In this document: positions 45,334 to 63,537 of the stretch, one piece after another
Position numbering within the stretch: position 1 is the stretch's first letter
Layout: each line of letters opens with the position of its first letter
Source: Candidatus Latescibacterota bacterium
Lineage (GTDB): Bacteria > Latescibacterota > UBA2968 > UBA8231
Reading direction: 5' to 3'
Assembly: GCA_965197905.1 (NCBI GenBank)
Contig: CBDAOB010000005.1
Coordinates: 1,248,001-1,312,000 of the forward strand
DNA length: 64,000 nucleotides
Notes under the pieces: generated by a model
What the model was told of the DNA's origin: nothing
The model's database searches: none
The model's input: the letters and a program-made list of their open reading frames with translations, nothing else
Program-made: the position numbers and the translations under genes

Positions 45334-45627
45334 TCAGGCTTCCTCGGCGGGCAGCCATTCCTCGATGGTTCGGCATACGGAACGGGCCTGGTTGGCGCTT
45401 GAGATCTCGAACTTACTGCGCTGCAGGTAGGTGCCCTCGCGCTTCTGGTATCTGCGGATCGATATCTTTTGGGGGCCGTAGTCACCCGATTTTCTGTCCA
45501 GATCCTGGTACAGAAACATGATGGTGGCCCACGAGCCTTTGCTCAGCACTTCCTTGTCCAGTTCCTTCCGCAGGACTTGACCATCCTCCTCGTACTGGAT
45601 CGTCAACTCCTCTACCGTTTCCGCCAT
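45334..45627 (-). CDS. Small hypothetical protein (97 aa)
   Basis: Clean ORF with AAGG RBS and protein-like composition. Confidence 0.7.
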   Translation of the reverse strand: MAETVEELTIQYEEDGQVLRKELDKEVLSKGSWATIMFLYQDLDRKSGDYGPQKISIRRYQKREGTYLQRSKFEISSANQARSVCRTIEEWLPAEEA

Positions 45628-50224: not shown

Positions 50225-51369
50225 CAGGATGCGGCGGCCTCCATAGGTAAGCTGACTACCTGATTCTGCATCACCGATAAATAGCCGGCGGTTAGAATCT
50301 CCATATTGTCGCGGGCGTCCGCGACGGTGTAAGACGTATGGCGGTCGTTGTCCATAGCCCCAAGCAGATCCTCGAGGGCGGCGGCGAATCCGACGCTATC
50401 AGGGACCGCTGTCGTCGTTGGAGTCGGAGATCTGCTGTGCCACATCATCGGGTCTTTGGGGGGGATGCTGTAGTCGGCGCCGACGATCTCCTCCCTTAGG
50501 AAGCTATTGACGGTAGGTCCCTTGCCATCAACGACCGCGCTTCCCAAGCTGCCAACGAGATATGCCTTCGAGGGACCGCCCTGCGGGTGGGTTGCAACCC
50601 CGATGCGGCCACCGCAAACCGTGGCGATGCGGCCGGAGTCGTCTGTCATGGTCAAGGTGCCAAAATCGTCAGCACCATGGGACGCGTGCTCGGGGAAGAA
50701 GTGGGCCCCGGCGCGTCCGTAGACCTTTCTTATGGGGCCCAGACAGGTCTGCACCAATCCGACGCCGTAGGCGCCGACGCAAAGAAGCTCCCGTTTGATG
50801 TCGGGAAACTTCCAGCGTCCCGGCCCTAGAAAGGTGGGAGTAGCGCTCGAATCGATCGGCCGTGGCCAGCCCTTGGAGAACAAACCGTCGGCGTGGACGC
50901 CGAGAAGGGTCCCCAACGAATTCGACTCCAATATGGATTGGCTCTGCCTGGCCAGCTCACCATAGGTGAAGCTCGGAATGATCGAACAGACGCCAGCGCG
51001 ATCGACGGCGGAGACCACCGCATCGCACTCGTCGACTGTCGCCCCGATGAACTTGTCGATCCACAGCGCCTTGCCGGCGGCGGCAGCACGTTGGGCCAGG
51101 CCGGCGCGTTTTTCGATTTCGTGACCGATACTCACGATGTGAACCCGATCGTCTTCGAGCCCACGATCCACATCTTCGAGGTAGGGGACGCCCAGGCGCG
51201 CCGCCCAATCGCGATTGGCTACCGCAAGATCCTCCTCGATGTCCGCGTCATCGGCGACGGCGACGATTTCGATGCGAGGATGATCCTGGTAGAGGGGGAC
51301 GAAGCTCGGTTGGTGGCTGTACTTGCTGAAGCTTACCAGCAAAACTCCGTATCTCTCGAGGTCGGTCAA
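50224..51369 (-). CDS. Gfo/Idh/MocA family oxidoreductase
   Basis: IVAVAD, AAAAGK.LWIDK, overall Gfo layout. Confidence 0.75.
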   Translation of the reverse strand: MTDLERYGVLLVSFSKYSHQPSFVPLYQDHPRIEIVAVADDADIEEDLAVANRDWAARLGVPYLEDVDRGLEDDRVHIVSIGHEIEKRAGLAQRAAAAGKALWIDKFIGATVDECDAVVSAVDRAGVCSIIPSFTYGELARQSQSILESNSLGTLLGVHADGLFSKGWPRPIDSSATPTFLGPGRWKFPDIKRELLCVGAYGVGLVQTCLGPIRKVYGRAGAHFFPEHASHGADDFGTLTMTDDSGRIATVCGGRIGVATHPQGGPSKAYLVGSLGSAVVDGKGPTVNSFLREEIVGADYSIPPKDPMMWHSRSPTPTTTAVPDSVGFAAALEDLLGAMDNDRHTSYTVADARDNMEILTAGYLSVMQNQVVSLPMEAAAS

Positions 51370-51439
51370 CGGCGAATCAGTTTTTTGGGAGAATAGATGA
51401 ATGAGGCCGGCATTTCGAATCGATGCCGGTCGGAACTGG

Positions 51440-51976
51440 CTACCAGCGCGTCAAGTTGCCCATGATCTTGTCCAGATCAGTCTGCAGACCCTTCTTTTCC
51501 GTTTCCAGCTCGCGAATACGGTTTTCGCTTTCTTCGAGCGATCCGGAAAGATTCTTCATGGCGTCTTCCAGCTCAGCTGCTTTTTCAGCCAACTTAGCGC
51601 TCTGTTCCGTTGCCTGTGAGCGTTGCTTCTGGCGTTCGTCGAGCTCCTGGCGCAAGGTGGACAGCCGGATCTCCATATCGTGAATCGTTTTGTCAGCGTC
51701 CTCCTGGACCTTCTTGCGTTCCTGGTCCAGTTCCTGCTGGATGCGATTCTGTTCTTCCTGCAGTTTTCTTTCCTGTGCCTTCAATTCCTCGTAGACAGCC
51801 GAAAGTTTTTCCTCGACGGCCTCTCGCTCCTGTGCGCTAGTATGCACCTGTTTCTCCGCCTCTTGCTTGACGGCGACTTCGATGTCGAGCATTTGGTGCA
51901 AGCGTGCAATCTCATCACGTTGTCGGGTGAGTTCAGTTTTTAATCTACCGGCAGTTAGGAAGGCGAATATTCCCAT
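51440..51976 (-). CDS. Coiled-coil protein with a short hydrophobic N-terminal peptide
   Basis: MGIFAFL followed by about 165 aa of E/Q/K-rich heptads; GAGGG RBS. Confidence 0.8.
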   Translation of the reverse strand: MGIFAFLTAGRLKTELTRQRDEIARLHQMLDIEVAVKQEAEKQVHTSAQEREAVEEKLSAVYEELKAQERKLQEEQNRIQQELDQERKKVQEDADKTIHDMEIRLSTLRQELDERQKQRSQATEQSAKLAEKAAELEDAMKNLSGSLEESENRIRELETEKKGLQTDLDKIMGNLTRW

Positions 51977-52053
51977 TGAGTTTCCCTCTTACGCAGCTAA
52001 CCGCACATTTCGGGGGAGTCGGGGGGAGAACCGAAGAAAACTGAGCCGGCGAC

Positions 52054-53142
52054 CTAGGAGACCTTGCCGGCTTGGCGCCACTCGGAATCGGGCATGTCAG
52101 TAGCCAGCTTCAGCGCTCCAACGGCTCCGGCGTACACCGGGTCTTCCACCGTCGACACCTTACACGGACCAAACTCGCTCAGGTTCGAACGCACCTCTTC
52201 CGCAAGGGCGCGAATCTGACTGCCGCCTCCGGCGAGCAATATGTTCTGCCGCAGATCGTGTTGGTACTCCGGATCGAACGTAACGATCAGTTCCCGGGCG
52301 CTCTCGATCAGATCGGGCATGACACTTTCGCAAGCTTCCCTCACTTCCTCGGTTACGTCGTAGGTCTTCGGTTTTCCGTTGACCTAGAAATCGACGTAGA
52401 TCACTTCTTTCTGCGAGGAAACGAAAGCGTACTGTTCCTTGATGCGGCGCGCATTTTCCAGGGTGATGGGCGAATCCTTGATCTTCTCCTGAAGCAGCAT
52501 GTGCAGGCGCGAATCTACGAAGTTGCCGGCTTTGACCAACGTCCGTTGGTCTTCCTCGCTGGGGATCGTACCGTGCATGCGACAGAGATCTAAGGTGCCC
52601 GCCCCGATGTCGATAATCAGCGCGCTATTGAACAGATCCAAGCCATACGCGACAAGAAATGGCTCAGAGGCTATGAGCACATAATCAACCAGACCGCTTA
52701 CCGCGTCGGCCAACGCTTGCCGGTCCTCGGTGGAGGCGCGGGCCGGACATCCGATGACGACCCGAAGTTCCTGATTCGGCTGGCGTTCGGCTAATTCGAG
52801 TATGAAGGTGACCAGGTGGTTGATCGCCTCCGCATCCCGGTTCAAATCCTGATCCTCGGCCTCTTCCGGCGATGCGCGATATCTAAAAACACCATTCTCC
52901 AATGGCCAGATCATGTCGACGGCCATGCGGTTCTTCAGACATTCCTCGCCGATCACTACCCGTTTTCCGAGGAACTTGTAAGATATTAGGTCCTTCGGCC
53001 AACCGACGACGCTGCTGACTGTTCGTTTGATCTGTGTGTTTGTGGCGATAGAACTCTGCGATGTGCCCAGGTCTATGCCAATGCAGAGGATATCGGATTT
53101 GGAGGACTTATCCAAAGCTCCTTCCGCCTCGGCACTTGCCAT
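52054..53142 (-). CDS. MamK-like bacterial actin, interrupted by an in-frame TAG at codon 253 (52384-52386)
   Basis: GIDLGTS, SVVGWPKD, SEPFLVAYG, DIGAGT, EDQ.TL.KAGN, KEQY.FV, then in frame after the TAG: GKP..DVTE, FDPEYQ, NILLAGGGS, GALKLA..W. These are collinear with MamK as I recall it. Confidence 0.82.
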
Positions 53143-53198
53143 ATTCAAATGCTCCCCGAAAAATACGTCAAAATCATGTGTAAATCTCTATTTCGCAC

Positions 53199-53228
53199 AA
53201 TGTAAGAGCAATACTGGAGGACTGTCAA
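53199..53228 (-). promoter_or_regulatory. sigma70 promoter for the MamK-like gene
   Basis: TTGACA-18nt-TACATT; GGGGAG RBS before ATG 53142. Confidence 0.6.
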
Positions 53229-53388
53229 GCAAAAGTTTCCTCAGGCATACTCACGGTGATGTGAATGGCGAAAAGGGCGAATGTGTTCACGGCATGCGGC
53301 CACTACCGAAAGAAGCAGCTGCCAACGGCTCGCAACCTCTTTCTTGCCGACAATCGAAGAGTTTATACAATTCTGTAGGGACCAGTTC

Positions 53389-56300
53389 ATGCTCTACTTG
53401 GCGATTATCACAGGGTTGGCGGCCGTTGGTTACGGTGGTGCGCAAGCCTCGTCTGTCCCCACCCATGCACCCAGCGAGATCCTGGTTCGCTTCCGTGCCC
53501 CGAGTGCCAAGATATCCGCCGCCGCCCACGACGAGGTCGAACGACTGAACCGTCTCTTCGGGCTTGTGGCGGAGGTGCCGGTGTTACCAGTTAACTCCTT
53601 GCCGGGCAGTGCGAAGACCGCTGGCGGGAGCACACTGGAGAGATGGCGGTTGTTGCGTTTTTCCCCGGGGACCGCCGCCGATTCGCTCGTGCTGTATTAT
53701 TCGATGTTGAAAACTGTCGAGCGAGTCCAGCCAAATTACCTCCGACGGTTTGCCAGTACGCCCAACGATTCACTCTTTCGGCGGCAGTGGAATCTCTCCC
53801 ACATTGGCTGGACGGAGGTCGAACCGGTCGATGCCAGCCACCTCATCGTTGCGGTCATCGATTCTGGTCTGGACTACCGTCACCCCGACATCGTTGACCA
53901 GGTGTGGACCAATGAAGGGGAAATCCCCGGTGCGCCGGGTGTCGACGACGACAGCAACGGATACGTAGATGATTTCCTCGGTTGGGATTTTACCCATGCC
54001 CCAGGATTCGCGGCACAAGGGGATTATCTAGATCGCGATGGCGATCCCATGGATGAGTCCGGACATGGAACCCACGTCGCTGGCATCATCGCCGCAACGA
54101 GCGACAACGAACTGGGAATAGCAGGTGTGGCCCATGGGGTCCGGATCATGCCGCTGCGAGCCGGCTTCAATCTGGCTGCGGGTGGCTTCCTGGAGGATGA
54201 CGACCTCGCCGCTGCCATTGTCTACGCGGCGGACAACGGCGCGGACATCCTGAACATGAGTTGGGGCGATCCTCAGTTCTCGCCGCTGATTCGCGATGTG
54301 ATTCGCTACGCCCGCAGCAGAGGCTGCGTTCTGGTGGCGGCGGCGGGCAATGATGGCGGCGATGCGGTCTTCTATCCCGCGAAGCTGGACGAGACGATTG
54401 CGGTAGCAGCCAGCGGAACAGGCGATTCCGTGCCGGCCTTCACCAACCGCGGATCAAGTATCGATGTCGCGGCGCCGGGGATCGGGATCTGGAGCCTGGC
54501 GCCTGGTGGTTCCTACGCCGAGCGGACCGGCACCTCCATGGCGGCCGCCCACATTTCCGGGATTGCGGCAGCGTTCATGGCGCAAGGTGCTGGCCTGGAC
54601 GCCGCTCAGGTAAGGGCGGCGCTCGCATTGAGCGCGCGTGACGTAGGGTCGTCCGGATGGGATGACCGCACCGGTGCCGGCATCGCCAACATCGATGCAT
54701 CTACCCCGTCGCCGCCGGTGGTGGCGATCGCTAAGCCGTCAGTTGATGATCTTCTTGTCGATCGCATCGGAATTGAGCTAACCCTTGCTGGAAGCGTAGG
54801 CAGATTGGATGTAAGCTGGCGCGCCCTCGAAGAAAGCTCGACATGGAACCGGCTTTTCGCGGGAGCGGCATCGCAGGTAAGCGCGGAAAACCTGATGTGG
54901 GATGTTTCGACCTTGCCGGAGGGCAGCTACGAAATCCGCGCGCGTGCGTTGCAGCACGATCTTCAAGACCGCGTGGAGGTCCGGGTGCAGCGTACGCCGC
55001 CGCGGATAACGCAGGTCGAGCTCACGCCTGTGTTGGACGGGCCCAAGTGGGACTATCTCTTGGAATGGGAGACGGATGAGCCGTCAGGCGGCGAGGTTGT
55101 GATCGTCGCTGACGTCGGGAGCGTGCCGGTCAGAACCTTGCCGGTACCCGCACGTTCCCGCAGCCATTCCCTGACCTTGGGTTCTGATCTGGATCGCGGG
55201 GAATACCGCGTACATCTACGTCCGCGCTCGGGACAGCTGCAAGGGGTCGAATTCGAAGCGGGCGGTTTTGCTGTCGACGCTCGTCAGTTCCCGCAGTGGA
55301 ATTCCGTTCTTCGTGGCAGGTTAGCAGACGGCTACCTCATGCCGATGTTTTCCGACTTCAACACCAACGGGGTTGCGGAACTCGTGCAAATGACGATGGG
55401 CGGGACGCCACAATACGGCCAGGCCGTGTTCCATGAACCGGGGACCGAAGGGTTTAGGGAGGTGTTTCGCAGCTCGAGGTTATTCATCCCGTGGAACACC
55501 CACGACCTCGATCGCGATGGGCTGCCCGAATTGATGGCCGTAGATGCCCAGAGGGTCAGGTTGCTGGAGCCCGAAAACGAGGGTCGATTCCCGCAACAGG
55601 TTGTCTGGGAACGACGAGACGTTTGGGGTGGCGAGGTGGGTGACCTTGATAGCGATGGCAATCAGGAGATGTTTCTCCGGTCCAGCAACGCCGACCTGAT
55701 TCATGTCTTCGAGAACCAACGAGACAATGACTTTTCCGAGATCACCGTGCTCACCAATCCCACAACGGGCACCAACGAGTTGGGAGATCGGCAGCTAGTC
55801 GGCGACTTCGACGACGACGGACGCGCGGAGTTGTTGGTGGGAGACGGGGACGGCGACCTCTTCATCTTCGAAGGTTTTGGCGACGACCGTCAGCGGATGT
55901 CGTGGCGGCGCGATCAGAGCGGTAACTCAGACGGTCGGGTGGTGGGCGGGGGAACGGATATAGATGGGGATTCGCGGGTAGAGTTTGTCGTCGCTCATCT
56001 GCTCCTGAACCCAGTGCGTCCCGACCTTCAGCGCTGGACCGTATCCGTATTCCAATCGGTGGGAGACAACGAGTTTACCCGCGAGTGGTCTGTGGAGGTA
56101 AAGGGTGGCCGGTCTAACGGTAACGGGATTGCCAGCGGCGACTTGAACGGCGATGGATTGCCGGAACTCGTTCTGGCTCTGGTGCCCGATCTCTATGTCG
56201 TCTCAGCAACGGGTGTCGACACCTATGAACCGGTGTGGCACTCCACCATTGGCAACGCTCGAAGAACTGTCATTGGAGATCTGACGGCATCCGGCGATAT

Positions 56301-58951: not shown

Positions 58952-59203
58952 ATGAGCAGTCCAACAGATCTTTCCCAGTTGCAGAATATGGATGTGCGGG
59001 TGTCGGTGGAATGGGGGCGGACCCGCATAACGCTGGAAGAGGCGCGGACGCTTGGCCCCGAAGCGATCCTCAAGGTCGATAGCGAGGTGGACGATCCGGT
59101 GGAGGTGCGGGTCAACGGCAAGTTGATCGGGCGCGGCAAGATGGTGCTCGTGGGCGACAGTTACGGCGTACAGATGACTCAGTTCGTGGATGGCGGTACC
59201 TGA
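58952..59203 (+). CDS. FliN/SpoA-domain protein
   Basis: V.VEWGRT, PVEVRVNGKLIGRG..V.V...YGV; AAGGA RBS. Confidence 0.85.
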   Translation: MSSPTDLSQLQNMDVRVSVEWGRTRITLEEARTLGPEAILKVDSEVDDPVEVRVNGKLIGRGKMVLVGDSYGVQMTQFVDGGT

Positions 59204-61661: not shown

Positions 61662-63537
61662 TTGACGTCTATCCAGGGTGAGCTGCGCGACCAGCTCGTA
61701 GGTTTGTTGGGCGACCGGATTGCCACCGGAGAAGTGTTGATCTCACCTTCCCACTTCCTCGCCGCCATCGTCGAGGATTACCAGGTGCTGACAGGAAGCT
61801 TCGTCTCGGAGGAGGTGAAGAGCGAGTTGTCATCTCTCCTTGGCGAGGTCAACAAATCTACTCCGGAATTGGTGCTCATACCCGGGATTGAGAACTGGAT
61901 CACCAAGTCGGTTTATGGCTTGATGCGCAAAAAGAGCTGGGGCGTAACCGAGGTGCGCGAGGGCGGGAATCACCTGGTGCGCGACTTCGTGAAAAGCGCC
62001 CAGGTGAAAGCGTTGCTCCAGGGTTTGAAGACTACTCCGAATCAGCTGAATGCTCGCCGCTGCCTTCACACCATAACCTACCAGATCGCCGGCAAGGAAG
62101 ATCCCCAGCAAAAACGCTCCCTGGCGCGCCTGGCACAGGCAAGAGCCAACGCCAAGACCGTTGTCCCCGCCGATGGAGGCGGCGCCCCGGTTGACCGCGC
62201 AGCCCAAAGTGAAGCGCGGTTGCAGGAGCTGCTTTCGGGGCCAGCCGAGGACCCGAGTGCGGAGGAGGTGGAGCATCGGCACGCGGAGCAGAAGAAGGCC
62301 CAGGCAAAGATTCGCAAAGAGCAGATGGACCATTTGATAGAACATCTGGACCAATATGTCGCCCAGGGCAAGATGACTGAAGAGGAAGCGGGGAAGCTCA
62401 AGAAGCTGAATCAGGTCGACACGGCCATGCAGAGTGGCAAGGTAGACAAAGAGAAGGGAAGCAAAATACGTAACAGTATCCTCTCCGGCACCGCACGTTA
62501 CGAGCTGGACAAGAAGGTCAAGGAAACCGTCGACTACGTAGTGCGTTACACACAGGTGTACGACGCGCTGGGGCGCATCGAACAAAAGTACGACGACGCA
62601 CTGCGGCTCCTGATCGAATTCAAGGAGGCGGCGAACGCCGCGGAGCGCACTCAAGAGGAATTCGGCGCGTTGGGCAAGAAGCTCATCGAAGACACCGCTT
62701 GCCTGCAGAAGGTCATCGGCCTTCTTGACAGACAGGACGGCGAGGTGCGCATGATCGCTGCGAACCTGCCTCCGTATAGCCACATCATGCGCAGAGATCA
62801 GGATCGCGTCTCCAACATGGTTATCGAAGAGAGTTTCGTCATCGAGCTGCGGGAGTCGGAACCCGGTGCGATCTCCGAGAAGCTGAGGGATCCGGACCGC
62901 AAGGTGCAAGTGCGAGCGGCGGCGGACATGTTGTGTATGGCAGGACTGATCAATCGCCTTATCAAACCTACGCCGATTCGCAAAGAGATTCGGCTTCTAA
63001 AGTTGAACCTCATCATTGAGGACTTCTTTCGTTCTTCCAACGACGTGAGTGAAGCGCGCTCGCGCGCGCAGCAGTTTCTAGAGACCCGCATTTTGAAGCT
63101 GTACCCCGACTTGACCGAGGAGGAAACCGCCGAAATGCAGCAGCTGGGCGCGGAGATGATCGAGTCGGTGGAGCAGACTATCGTGGCAGAGCGCGCCGCT
63201 GAAAAAGAGGCCGGCGCAAGTGCAGCCAAGGAAGGGGCCGCTTCCTCTGCGCCCGCCTCTGAAGAGGGAGGGGGTGAGCTCAGCGCAGACGAGGTGAAGA
63301 GCGGAGTGATGATAGGGAGGGTACTGATGCGTATGGGGGGTGGGCAGCGCGTTGCCAAGCGGTATGTGGTAAAAAATCGGGAACGTGCCTTTTAAGATCA
63401 TGCCCGACGATGACGATCCATCCAGGTTCGTGCTCGTCAAGAAAGATCCGGATAGCGGCGAGCTTCTACTCGTGCGCCGTCGCGGCGCCAAGCGGTATGT
63501 GGTAAAAAATCGGGAAGGGGTCTGGGAGCCGACCTAG
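61662..63537 (+). CDS. Large helical acidic hypothetical protein; C-terminal about 50 aa shifted to the +1 frame near a 30-bp duplication
   Basis: 577-aa ORF ends at 63395; a second frame (63385-63537) reads VPFKIMPDDDD...AKRYVVKNREGVWEPT. Confidence 0.65.
63354..63516. repeat. 30-bp exact direct repeat (63354-63383 and 63487-63516)
   Basis: GCCAAGCGGTATGTGGTAAAAAATCGGGAA occurs twice. Confidence 0.92.

What the first reader, a model, noticed from the sequence alone, without database searches (positions are those of the whole stretch)
51440..53228. MamK-like actin plus putatively membrane-targeted coiled-coil protein outside any magnetosome cluster
Seen: a 362-codon actin with its own near-consensus promoter, followed 77 nt later by a 178-aa coiled coil starting MGIFAFL. 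No mamA/B/E/M/Q-like gene and no mreC/mreD are in the window. Known: the motifs SVVG.PKD, SEPF.V.YG, EDQ.TL.KAGN, GKP...DVTE, F.PEYQ and the terminal W match MamK (recalled, not searched) better than MreB, FtsA or ParM. MamK positions organelles through adaptor proteins, including coiled-coil Mad proteins in deep-branching magnetotactic bacteria. Inference: a two-gene cytoskeletal module (filament plus membrane adaptor) positioning a non-magnetosome cargo, or a detached part of a magnetosome system. This is the best candidate for an undescribed system here.
Basis: partly seen in the sequence, partly recalled or inferred. Interest (0 to 1): 0.8.

Follow-up and report, generated by a model that had tools for sequence, protein, structure and literature searches.

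The report
Broken actin gene tracking lost flagella
This is a freshly broken copy of a real two-gene unit (a relative of the magnetosome actin MamK plus a long rod-shaped partner protein) that non-magnetic Latescibacterota bacteria keep only while they carry flagellar genes, which hints that the filament serves swimming cells rather than magnetic organelles.

Summary
The stop is in two read sets, is not recoded, and removes 109 residues: this copy is a young pseudogene. Read through, it passes the MamK family cut-off (415 > 400); it is not MreB or BeeR. The genome has no magnetosome genes, and the actin forms its own clade, apart from both magnetosome MamK lineages. The coiled-coil gene follows it in 19 of 19 family genomes that carry it, and the two are deleted together. 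New clue: all 31 carriers among 168 Latescibacterota genomes hold flagellar genes; 0 of 20 flagellin-negative relatives carry it; here and in the sister species flagella and actin decay together. Gas vesicles, microcompartments, CheA and PilT do not track it. Best reading: a membrane-tethered filament serving the swimming stage; cargo and binding unshown, and general loss on host association is not excluded. MamK-like actins outside magnetotactic bacteria are known (saltatorellin, BeeR), and this scan noted other MamK-plus-partner modules in other lineages, but not this one.

The parts
53199..53228 (-). sigma-70-type promoter TTGACA-N18-TACATT
   Evidence: 10 of 12 matches; TTGACA kept in 9 of 10 relatives' upstream regions
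52054..53142 (-). MamK-family actin gene, 362 codons, broken by a nonsense codon
   Evidence: NF040964 415.3 bits > 400 when read with X; sister-species protein folds onto MamK 5ljv, TM 0.86
52384..52386 (-). in-frame TAG at codon 253; Gln in 45 of 45 close homologues
   Evidence: same letters in contigs of runs X1 and X8
51977..52053 (-). 77-nt spacer with a purine-rich ribosome-binding-like stretch before the second gene
   Evidence: sequence; spacer 30-107 nt in relatives
51440..51976 (-). 178-aa partner: one continuous helix, no Pfam family, intact
   Evidence: dN/dS 0.04 against G002
51878..51976 (-). partner residues 1-33: most conserved block (87-92% column identity), hydrophobic tip; candidate actin- or cargo-binding end (inferred)
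51443..51475 (-). partner residues 168-178: conserved amphipathic helix ending in Trp; candidate membrane anchor (inferred)
   Evidence: hydrophobic moment 0.78, highest of all 11-residue windows, median 0.35
51407..51429 (-). hairpin after the partner gene, without a U tail; not called as a terminator

Best explanation
Shown: this is a recently inactivated copy of a two-gene module of one Latescibacterota family: a MamK-family actin of its own clade plus a dedicated 178-aa coiled coil, behind a conserved sigma-70 promoter, gained and lost as a unit, with no magnetosomes. Shown as a correlation: the module is kept only with flagellar genes and decays when they decay. Inferred: in intact relatives the actin forms an ATP-driven filament like MamK; the partner, a rod of about 26 nm, grips the membrane with its C-terminal amphipathic helix and the filament or a polar cargo with its conserved N-terminal block; together they position or hand on the polar motility apparatus (or its pole landmark) in swimming cells. 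The module is an accessory, not a part of the flagellum. In this sponge-associated lineage swimming was given up, selection lapsed, and the actin took a CAG-to-TAG change.
For: Pseudogene; no amber tRNA or PylS; TAG ends 631 of 2008 long ORFs; 4 of 6 core missense differences between G000 and G002 hit columns invariant in 45 homologues, against 30 of 1607 in the clade. Unit: partner adjacent in 19 of 19 family carriers; both genes cut out cleanly between retained flanks in G004, G011, G020, G005, G003, G009; both eroded in G012 and G018. Flagella: 15 of 21 flagellin-positive against 0 of 20 flagellin-negative genomes; all 16 carriers found later also hold flagellar genes; 6 of 24 genes of the main flagellar cluster broken in G000, 16 missing and 5 damaged in the G002 stretch held, none broken in G015; flhA also broken in G012, G018, G030, whose actin gene is broken. 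Other cargoes do not track it.
Against: Many flagellated genomes lack the module: 21 of 45 flhA-positive genomes of the class had no match at E <= 1e-60 (two of these hold broken copies), genus g15 has flhA in 7 of 8 but the actin in 1 of 8, and 0 of 36 genomes of other classes carry it though 18 have flhA. G005 and G009 lost the pair with flhA intact. G107 keeps an open actin frame without flhA; G078 has a frameshifted actin with intact flhA. The pair is unlinked to flagellar clusters and its promoter is sigma-70 type. FlhF is present, so polar placement has its usual machinery. Kin are not independent, and about 8% of genes are broken in both sister genomes anyway, so co-loss may reflect lifestyle. 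The flhA frameshift in G000 lies in a short A run and could be a read error.
Confidence: 0.45

Rival explanations
1. Cell-shape module: actin plus membrane-bound coiled coil bends or stiffens the cell body for efficient swimming (in the manner of crescentin or MamY/CcfM, recalled), with no cargo.
For: Same co-loss with flagella; partner is a long helix with a putative membrane end; weak feature match to the crescentin rod, score 0.90, below the recognition level; a neighbouring MamK-like clade is coupled to wall amidases.
Against: No wall enzyme is linked in this clade; the crescentin match is weak; MreB is present.
Confidence: 0.2
2. Lifestyle co-loss only: the filament positions something unrelated to motility (a storage granule or other body) that free-living cells need, and it vanishes with flagella because host-associated cells need neither.
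For: Both sister genomes lose many genes; half of flagellated genomes lack the module; no linkage or flagellar promoter.
Against: No carrier among 31 lacks flagellar genes; microcompartments (38 of 41, absent at the cut-off used from intact carrier G015) and gas vesicles (1 of 41) do not fit; flanking genes stay when the pair goes.
Confidence: 0.18
3. Nucleoid or origin positioning in an asymmetric swarmer cycle: in the other three families of the class a ParB-like gene stands where the coiled coil stands here, so the coiled coil may have replaced it as the link to DNA-bound cargo.
For: A gene of about 204 aa follows the actin in 10 of 12 carriers of families f2-f4; the one scanned is ParB_N plus HTH_ParB; these actins are the sister group and are also confined to genomes with flagellar genes.
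Against: The coiled coil has no DNA-binding domain (7); G000 has no close orthologue of that ParB-like gene (best 31%); the module is dispensable.
Confidence: 0.12
4. The TAG is read through, so the module still works here.
For: dN/dS is equally low (0.03) before and after the stop; two RNA-library contigs lie on the actin gene.
Against: No suppressor tRNA or PylS; TAG is a normal stop in this genome; nonsense changes of all three kinds are common; two further invariant residues are changed in this copy. Low dN/dS is expected if the loss is recent.
Confidence: 0.03
5. Detached part of a magnetosome system.
For: Passes the MamK cut-off; magnetosome clusters are reported from this phylum (PMC7602337, passages); G000 is 91% complete; a greigite-type Latescibacterota MamK was not among my references.
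Against: No MamB, I, M, Q, H, S or T match in G000, and MamA, E, O only as generic TPR or HtrA hits; MamB over cut-off in 0 of 41 relatives; own clade apart from both magnetosome lineages.
Confidence: 0.02

Closest known systems
MamK of magnetotactic bacteria (NCBIfam NF040964; PDB 5ljv, 5ljw, 5jyg)
   Same: Family score over cut-off, 43-44% identity, same fold (TM 0.86), same nucleotide-binding motifs in intact relatives; paired with a coiled-coil gene as in deep-branching clusters (PMC12748827, passages).
   Different: No magnetosome genes; separate clade; unrelated partner; tracks flagella; this copy is truncated.
Saltatorellin (bioRxiv 10.1101/817700; abstract and passages read)
   Same: [quoted passage not shown]
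   Different: Planctomycete lineage; no partner described in the passages read; its sequence was not in my tree, so clade membership is untested.
BeeR (NF053558; PDB 8r2n; PMC11929497, main text read to the methods)
   Same: MamK-related actin of non-magnetotactic bacteria, function unknown.
   Different: 204 bits against a cut-off of 530; 27% identity; 14 disordered N-terminal residues rather than 30-50; outgroup in the tree.
MreB
   Same: Actin fold; Pfam MreB_Mbl hit.
   Different: 63 bits against a cut-off of 293; the genome has a separate mreB.
Mad20/25/26 coiled coils of deep-branching magnetosome clusters
   Same: Soluble coiled coils encoded beside a MamK gene.
   Different: No profile match between the partner family and the coiled coils of the deep-branching cluster L161.

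Membership tests
MamK family (sequence family NF040964) | Score above the curated cut-off of 400 bits | tested here: met
   415.3 read with X; 417.1 for intact G002. Cluster-borne MamK score 469-523.
MamK family (sequence family NF040964) | Actin fold closest to MamK | tested here: met
   Model of the G002 protein, pLDDT 89: top hits 5ljv and 5ljw
MamK family (sequence family NF040964) | Full-length product with all nucleotide-binding motifs | tested here: not met
   Stop at 253 removes the GGGS adenosine motif and the C-terminal 109 residues; met in intact relatives
Magnetosome MamK (functional class) | Genome holds the core genes mamA, B, I, M, Q (core set per PMC7602337, passages) | tested here: not met
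   MamB 0 of 41 over cut-off. The MamI profile rang in no control genome, but it did on L104 and the L104 protein found nothing in G000.
Magnetosome MamK (functional class) | Groups inside a clade of cluster-borne MamK | tested here: not met
   Own clade, 100/100, apart from L104/L108 and from L161/L171; only three cluster-borne references were verified, none greigite-type
Magnetosome MamK (functional class) | Polymerises and treadmills with ATP | not testable with these tools
   needs purified protein or live imaging
MreB | MreB family score and clade | tested here: not met
   63 bits against 293; far from six MreB rows
BeeR | Family score; 30-50-residue disordered N-terminus | tested here: not met
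   204 against 530; residues 1-14 disordered
Saltatorellin | Groups with the Saltatorellus actin | tested here: inconclusive
   Reference sequence not held; loci with an upstream coiled-coil partner form another clade, and that they include saltatorellin rests on earlier scan notes
Mad28 | Groups with Mad28 | not tested
   No Mad28 row in the trees; the likely Mad28 of L161 scores 40 bits on the MamK model against 415 here
Mad coiled-coil adaptors (partner gene) | Sequence kinship with Mad coiled coils | tested here: not met
   Profile A1 found no hit at E <= 0.001 in the ORFs of 83 loci, L161 included
Membrane-targeted adaptor (partner gene) | Amphipathic or transmembrane anchor | tested here: inconclusive
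   No transmembrane segment; N-terminus moment 0.11; C-terminus moment 0.78, mean hydrophobicity 0.51; membrane binding needs experiment

The most novel reading that the evidence does not exclude
A MamK-family filament with its own membrane-tethered coiled-coil adaptor that positions or segregates the polar flagellar apparatus: the first assigned non-magnetosome job for this actin family. With the tree, it would suggest that MamK-family actins are mostly general polarity filaments with swappable partners, recruited to magnetosomes at least twice.
Probability: 0.3. Interest if true: 0.8.

Novelty: new variant of a known kind. Interest (0 to 1): 0.55.

Why it matters
What MamK-like actins do outside magnetotactic bacteria is open: BeeR has no function and saltatorellin only a hypothesis. 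Here natural losses give a testable link to the swimming stage and name the partner to test. It also warns that a MamK hit over the NCBIfam cut-off is no marker of magnetotaxis: 21 of 168 genomes of this phylum pass it, and none of the 41 closest has MamB. For experiments the window's copy is the wrong one, and so is the sister species' copy; intact relatives should be used.

Tried and rejected
Co-folding of actin and partner, each with an alignment: no verdict, score 0.00; not evidence either way. Amber recoding or pyrrolysine: rejected. Assembly error at the stop: rejected; runs X2 and X5 could not be read at that codon because their rows were cut from the output. Chemoreceptor arrays as cargo: CheA dimer domain in 3 of 15 carriers and not in G000, which has 2 MCP hits. 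Gas vesicles 1 of 41. Microcompartments 38 of 41. PilT in 0 of 132 genomes of the class at E <= 1e-120. The short motif shared by partners of other MamK-like clades is not in this partner family or in G000. Longer or fused forms of the partner: none from residues 1-45, weak evidence. Atlas search for the partner: unnamed coiled coils only, below recognition level. Names for the distant representatives could not be obtained, so 98 of 167 tree rows carry no context label. A search of five non-carriers with the actin alignment rang nowhere, with no positive control in that call. Literature searches found no description of this clade, its partner or a link to flagella.

Full report
Observation. 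The promoter match alone is within chance (3 sites against 1.6 +/- 1.4), but TTGACA is kept in 9 of 10 aligned upstream regions.

The stop is real and is a stop. A contig of run X1 spans the whole stretch without a difference (it may be the source), and a 162-base contig of run X8, an RNA library of another study labelled sponge metagenome, covers the codon without a difference. X2 and X5 could not be read at that codon. The genome has no tRNA with a CUA anticodon and no PylS (20.6 bits against 178). TAG ends 631 of 2008 ORFs of 400 aa or more. The sister species G002 has CAG there, and 45 of 45 close homologues have Gln. The stop removes 109 residues, including the adenosine-binding GGGS. It is one of many breaks: 31 of 401 G002 genes are broken in G000 and 29 of 357 the other way round, on about 660 kb compared; these counts include some shadow ORFs and possible indel errors. 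dN/dS is 0.03 on both sides of the stop, so the loss is recent. Yet 4 of the 6 core missense differences between G000 and G002 fall on columns invariant in 45 homologues (two in each genome), against 30 of 1607 nearest-neighbour differences in the clade. Selection has lapsed in both sister species.

What the actin is. Read with X it scores 415 bits on MamK NF040964 (cut-off 400), 204 on BeeR (530) and 63 on MreB (293). A model of the intact G002 protein matches MamK 5ljv best (TM 0.86). A separate mreB lies elsewhere. Record titles of relatives name mostly Latescibacterota. No magnetosome system is present: MamB and MamI profiles find nothing and MamA only generic TPR proteins; proteins from two verified clusters (L104, L108) find no MamB, M, Q, I, H, S or T in G000; MamB passes its cut-off in 0 of 41 genomes. 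In a 167-row fast tree and a 48-row careful tree the window's actin sits in its own clade (100/100) with actins followed by a ParB-like gene and with stand-alone ones, apart from the L104/L108 MamK and from the deep-branching cluster L161. A single clade of the cluster-type MamK is rejected (p-AU 0.0016), but six of its nine rows were grouped by score or tree position, not by verified context, and the group was named after the tree was seen. Greigite-type MamK, Mad28 and saltatorellin were not in the trees.

The partner. It is one continuous helix of 176 residues (pLDDT 92) with no Pfam family. A profile search returned 25 homologues, 103-327 aa. Conservation peaks at residues 1-33 and 171-178. 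The N-terminus is hydrophobic but not amphipathic (moment 0.11); the last 11 residues have the highest moment in the protein (0.78, median 0.35). It shows no kinship with the coiled coils of L161. It directly follows the actin in 19 of 19 carriers of the family, in one case past inserted transposase genes. In six non-carriers the flanking genes are adjacent with the pair cut out (G004, G011, G020, G005, G003, G009; of 9 non-carrier loci examined, one ended at a contig edge and two showed no known flank). G018 holds eroded remnants of both genes. So the pair is one evolutionary unit.

What it tracks. Among 41 relatives, 15 carry the actin; all 15 have flagellins and FliG, while 0 of 20 flagellin-negative genomes carry it. 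A scan of 168 genomes of the phylum added 16 carriers: 12 have flhA and the other 4 have flagellins and FliG. Decay runs in parallel. Against a G021 reference cluster of 24 genes (names recalled from sequence and order, except flhA and flhF), G000 has 6 broken (flgE, motA, fliM, fliN, flhA, flhG-like), G002 lacks 16 in the 60 kb held and has 5 damaged, and G015, with an intact pair, has 23 found and none broken. flhA is also broken in G012, G018 and G030, whose actin genes are broken. A second G000 flagellar region looked largely whole. Results against: about half of the flagellated genomes lack the module; G005 and G009 lost it with flhA intact; G107 keeps an open actin frame without flhA; G078 has a frameshifted actin and intact flhA; G022 has a TAG in the partner with intact flhA. 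The Fisher values overstate, because kin are not independent. CheA (3 of 15 carriers), gas vesicles (1 of 41), microcompartments (38 of 41) and PilT (none in the class) do not track the pair.

How it most likely works. Shown: a co-inherited actin and coiled coil, needed only where flagellar genes are kept, not needed for having them. Inferred from MamK biology (treadmilling filament with lineage-specific adaptors; PMC10653835 and PMC12748827, passages): the filament is held at the membrane by the partner's C-terminal helix and positions or hands on a polar structure of swimming cells. I put this at 0.45. Rivals are a shape module for swimming (0.2), mere lifestyle co-loss (0.18), nucleoid positioning in a swarmer cycle (0.12, from the ParB-like gene in sister clades), read-through (0.03) and a detached magnetosome gene (0.02). 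No step of binding, polymerisation or localisation is shown.

What is known. MamK-like actins outside magnetotactic bacteria are published: saltatorellin (10.1101/817700, abstract and passages) and BeeR (PMC11929497, main text to the methods). A metagenome survey kept 227 of 2798 MamK-like hits as cluster-borne (PMC7449369, passages). I also read passages of PMC9938234, PMC11032199 and PMC7602337. Nine searches found no account of this clade, its partner or a tie to flagella; the library lacks most subscription papers, and I opened no supplements, so the sequence tables of PMC7449369 and of the saltatorellin preprint may list these proteins. Earlier notes of this scan report MamK-plus-partner modules in planctomycetes, Marine Group II archaea and amidase-coupled lineages but none for this module; one of them gave me the saltatorellin lead.

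Verdict. A new variant of a known kind, caught in the act of being lost. The window's copy is dead, the module is real, and its co-loss with flagella is a usable clue to an open question. Interest 0.55.

Noticed in passing
L110-L184, genes just upstream of MamK-like actins; L161:9181-9933: A short helical motif (two hydrophobic residues, then hydrophobic-aromatic, then Asn-Leu) is in 26 of 49 upstream neighbours but 1 of 527 other ORFs, in unrelated scaffolds: amidase N-termini, coiled-coil C-termini, a 101-aa viral-contig protein (motif defined on these same proteins). A weaker copy ends the gene before mamK in the deep-branching magnetosome cluster L161. Candidate shared MamK-binding peptide; absent from the window's partner.
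   Followed up: partly
L110-L182: Large clade of MamK-like genes directly behind an Amidase_3 gene, some followed by a receiver-SPOR gene, with no mam genes in the loci held.
   Followed up: partly
L013, L015, L016, L204-L211: In the other three families of the class the actin sits in a TPR, small gene, actin, ParB-like order; the upstream gene often ends in the conserved stretch ITIELQSH.
   Followed up: partly
P0152-P0169, P0175, P0182; P0188: MamK-like domains fused behind long low-complexity N-termini, several with a leading coiled coil (523-1232 aa), and one FtsZ-MamK fusion.
   Followed up: no
L184, L185, L186: MamK-like actins on three contigs of the viral collection, one next to a terminase gene.
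   Followed up: no
G000 C1-C5; window 58952-59203: At least seven dispersed FliG copies (four about 80% alike), several orphan FliN genes including one in the window, and up to ten flagellin-domain genes, yet no CheA hit. Multiple FliG copies are common in flagellated relatives.
   Followed up: partly
window 61662-63395 (+): 577-aa protein with no Pfam or NCBIfam family and three paralogues in the genome.
   Followed up: no
window 45334-45627 (-): 97-aa gene of no family; a close homologue directly follows the coiled-coil gene in G008 and G022.
   Followed up: no
window 52338-52499 and 52926-53155: Both contigs of RNA run X8 laid on 51000-53600 fall inside the broken actin gene; not proof of transcription.
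   Followed up: no
G000 and G002, about 660 kb compared: About 8% of genes broken in each sister genome: early genome decay, mixed with possible indel errors.
   Followed up: partly
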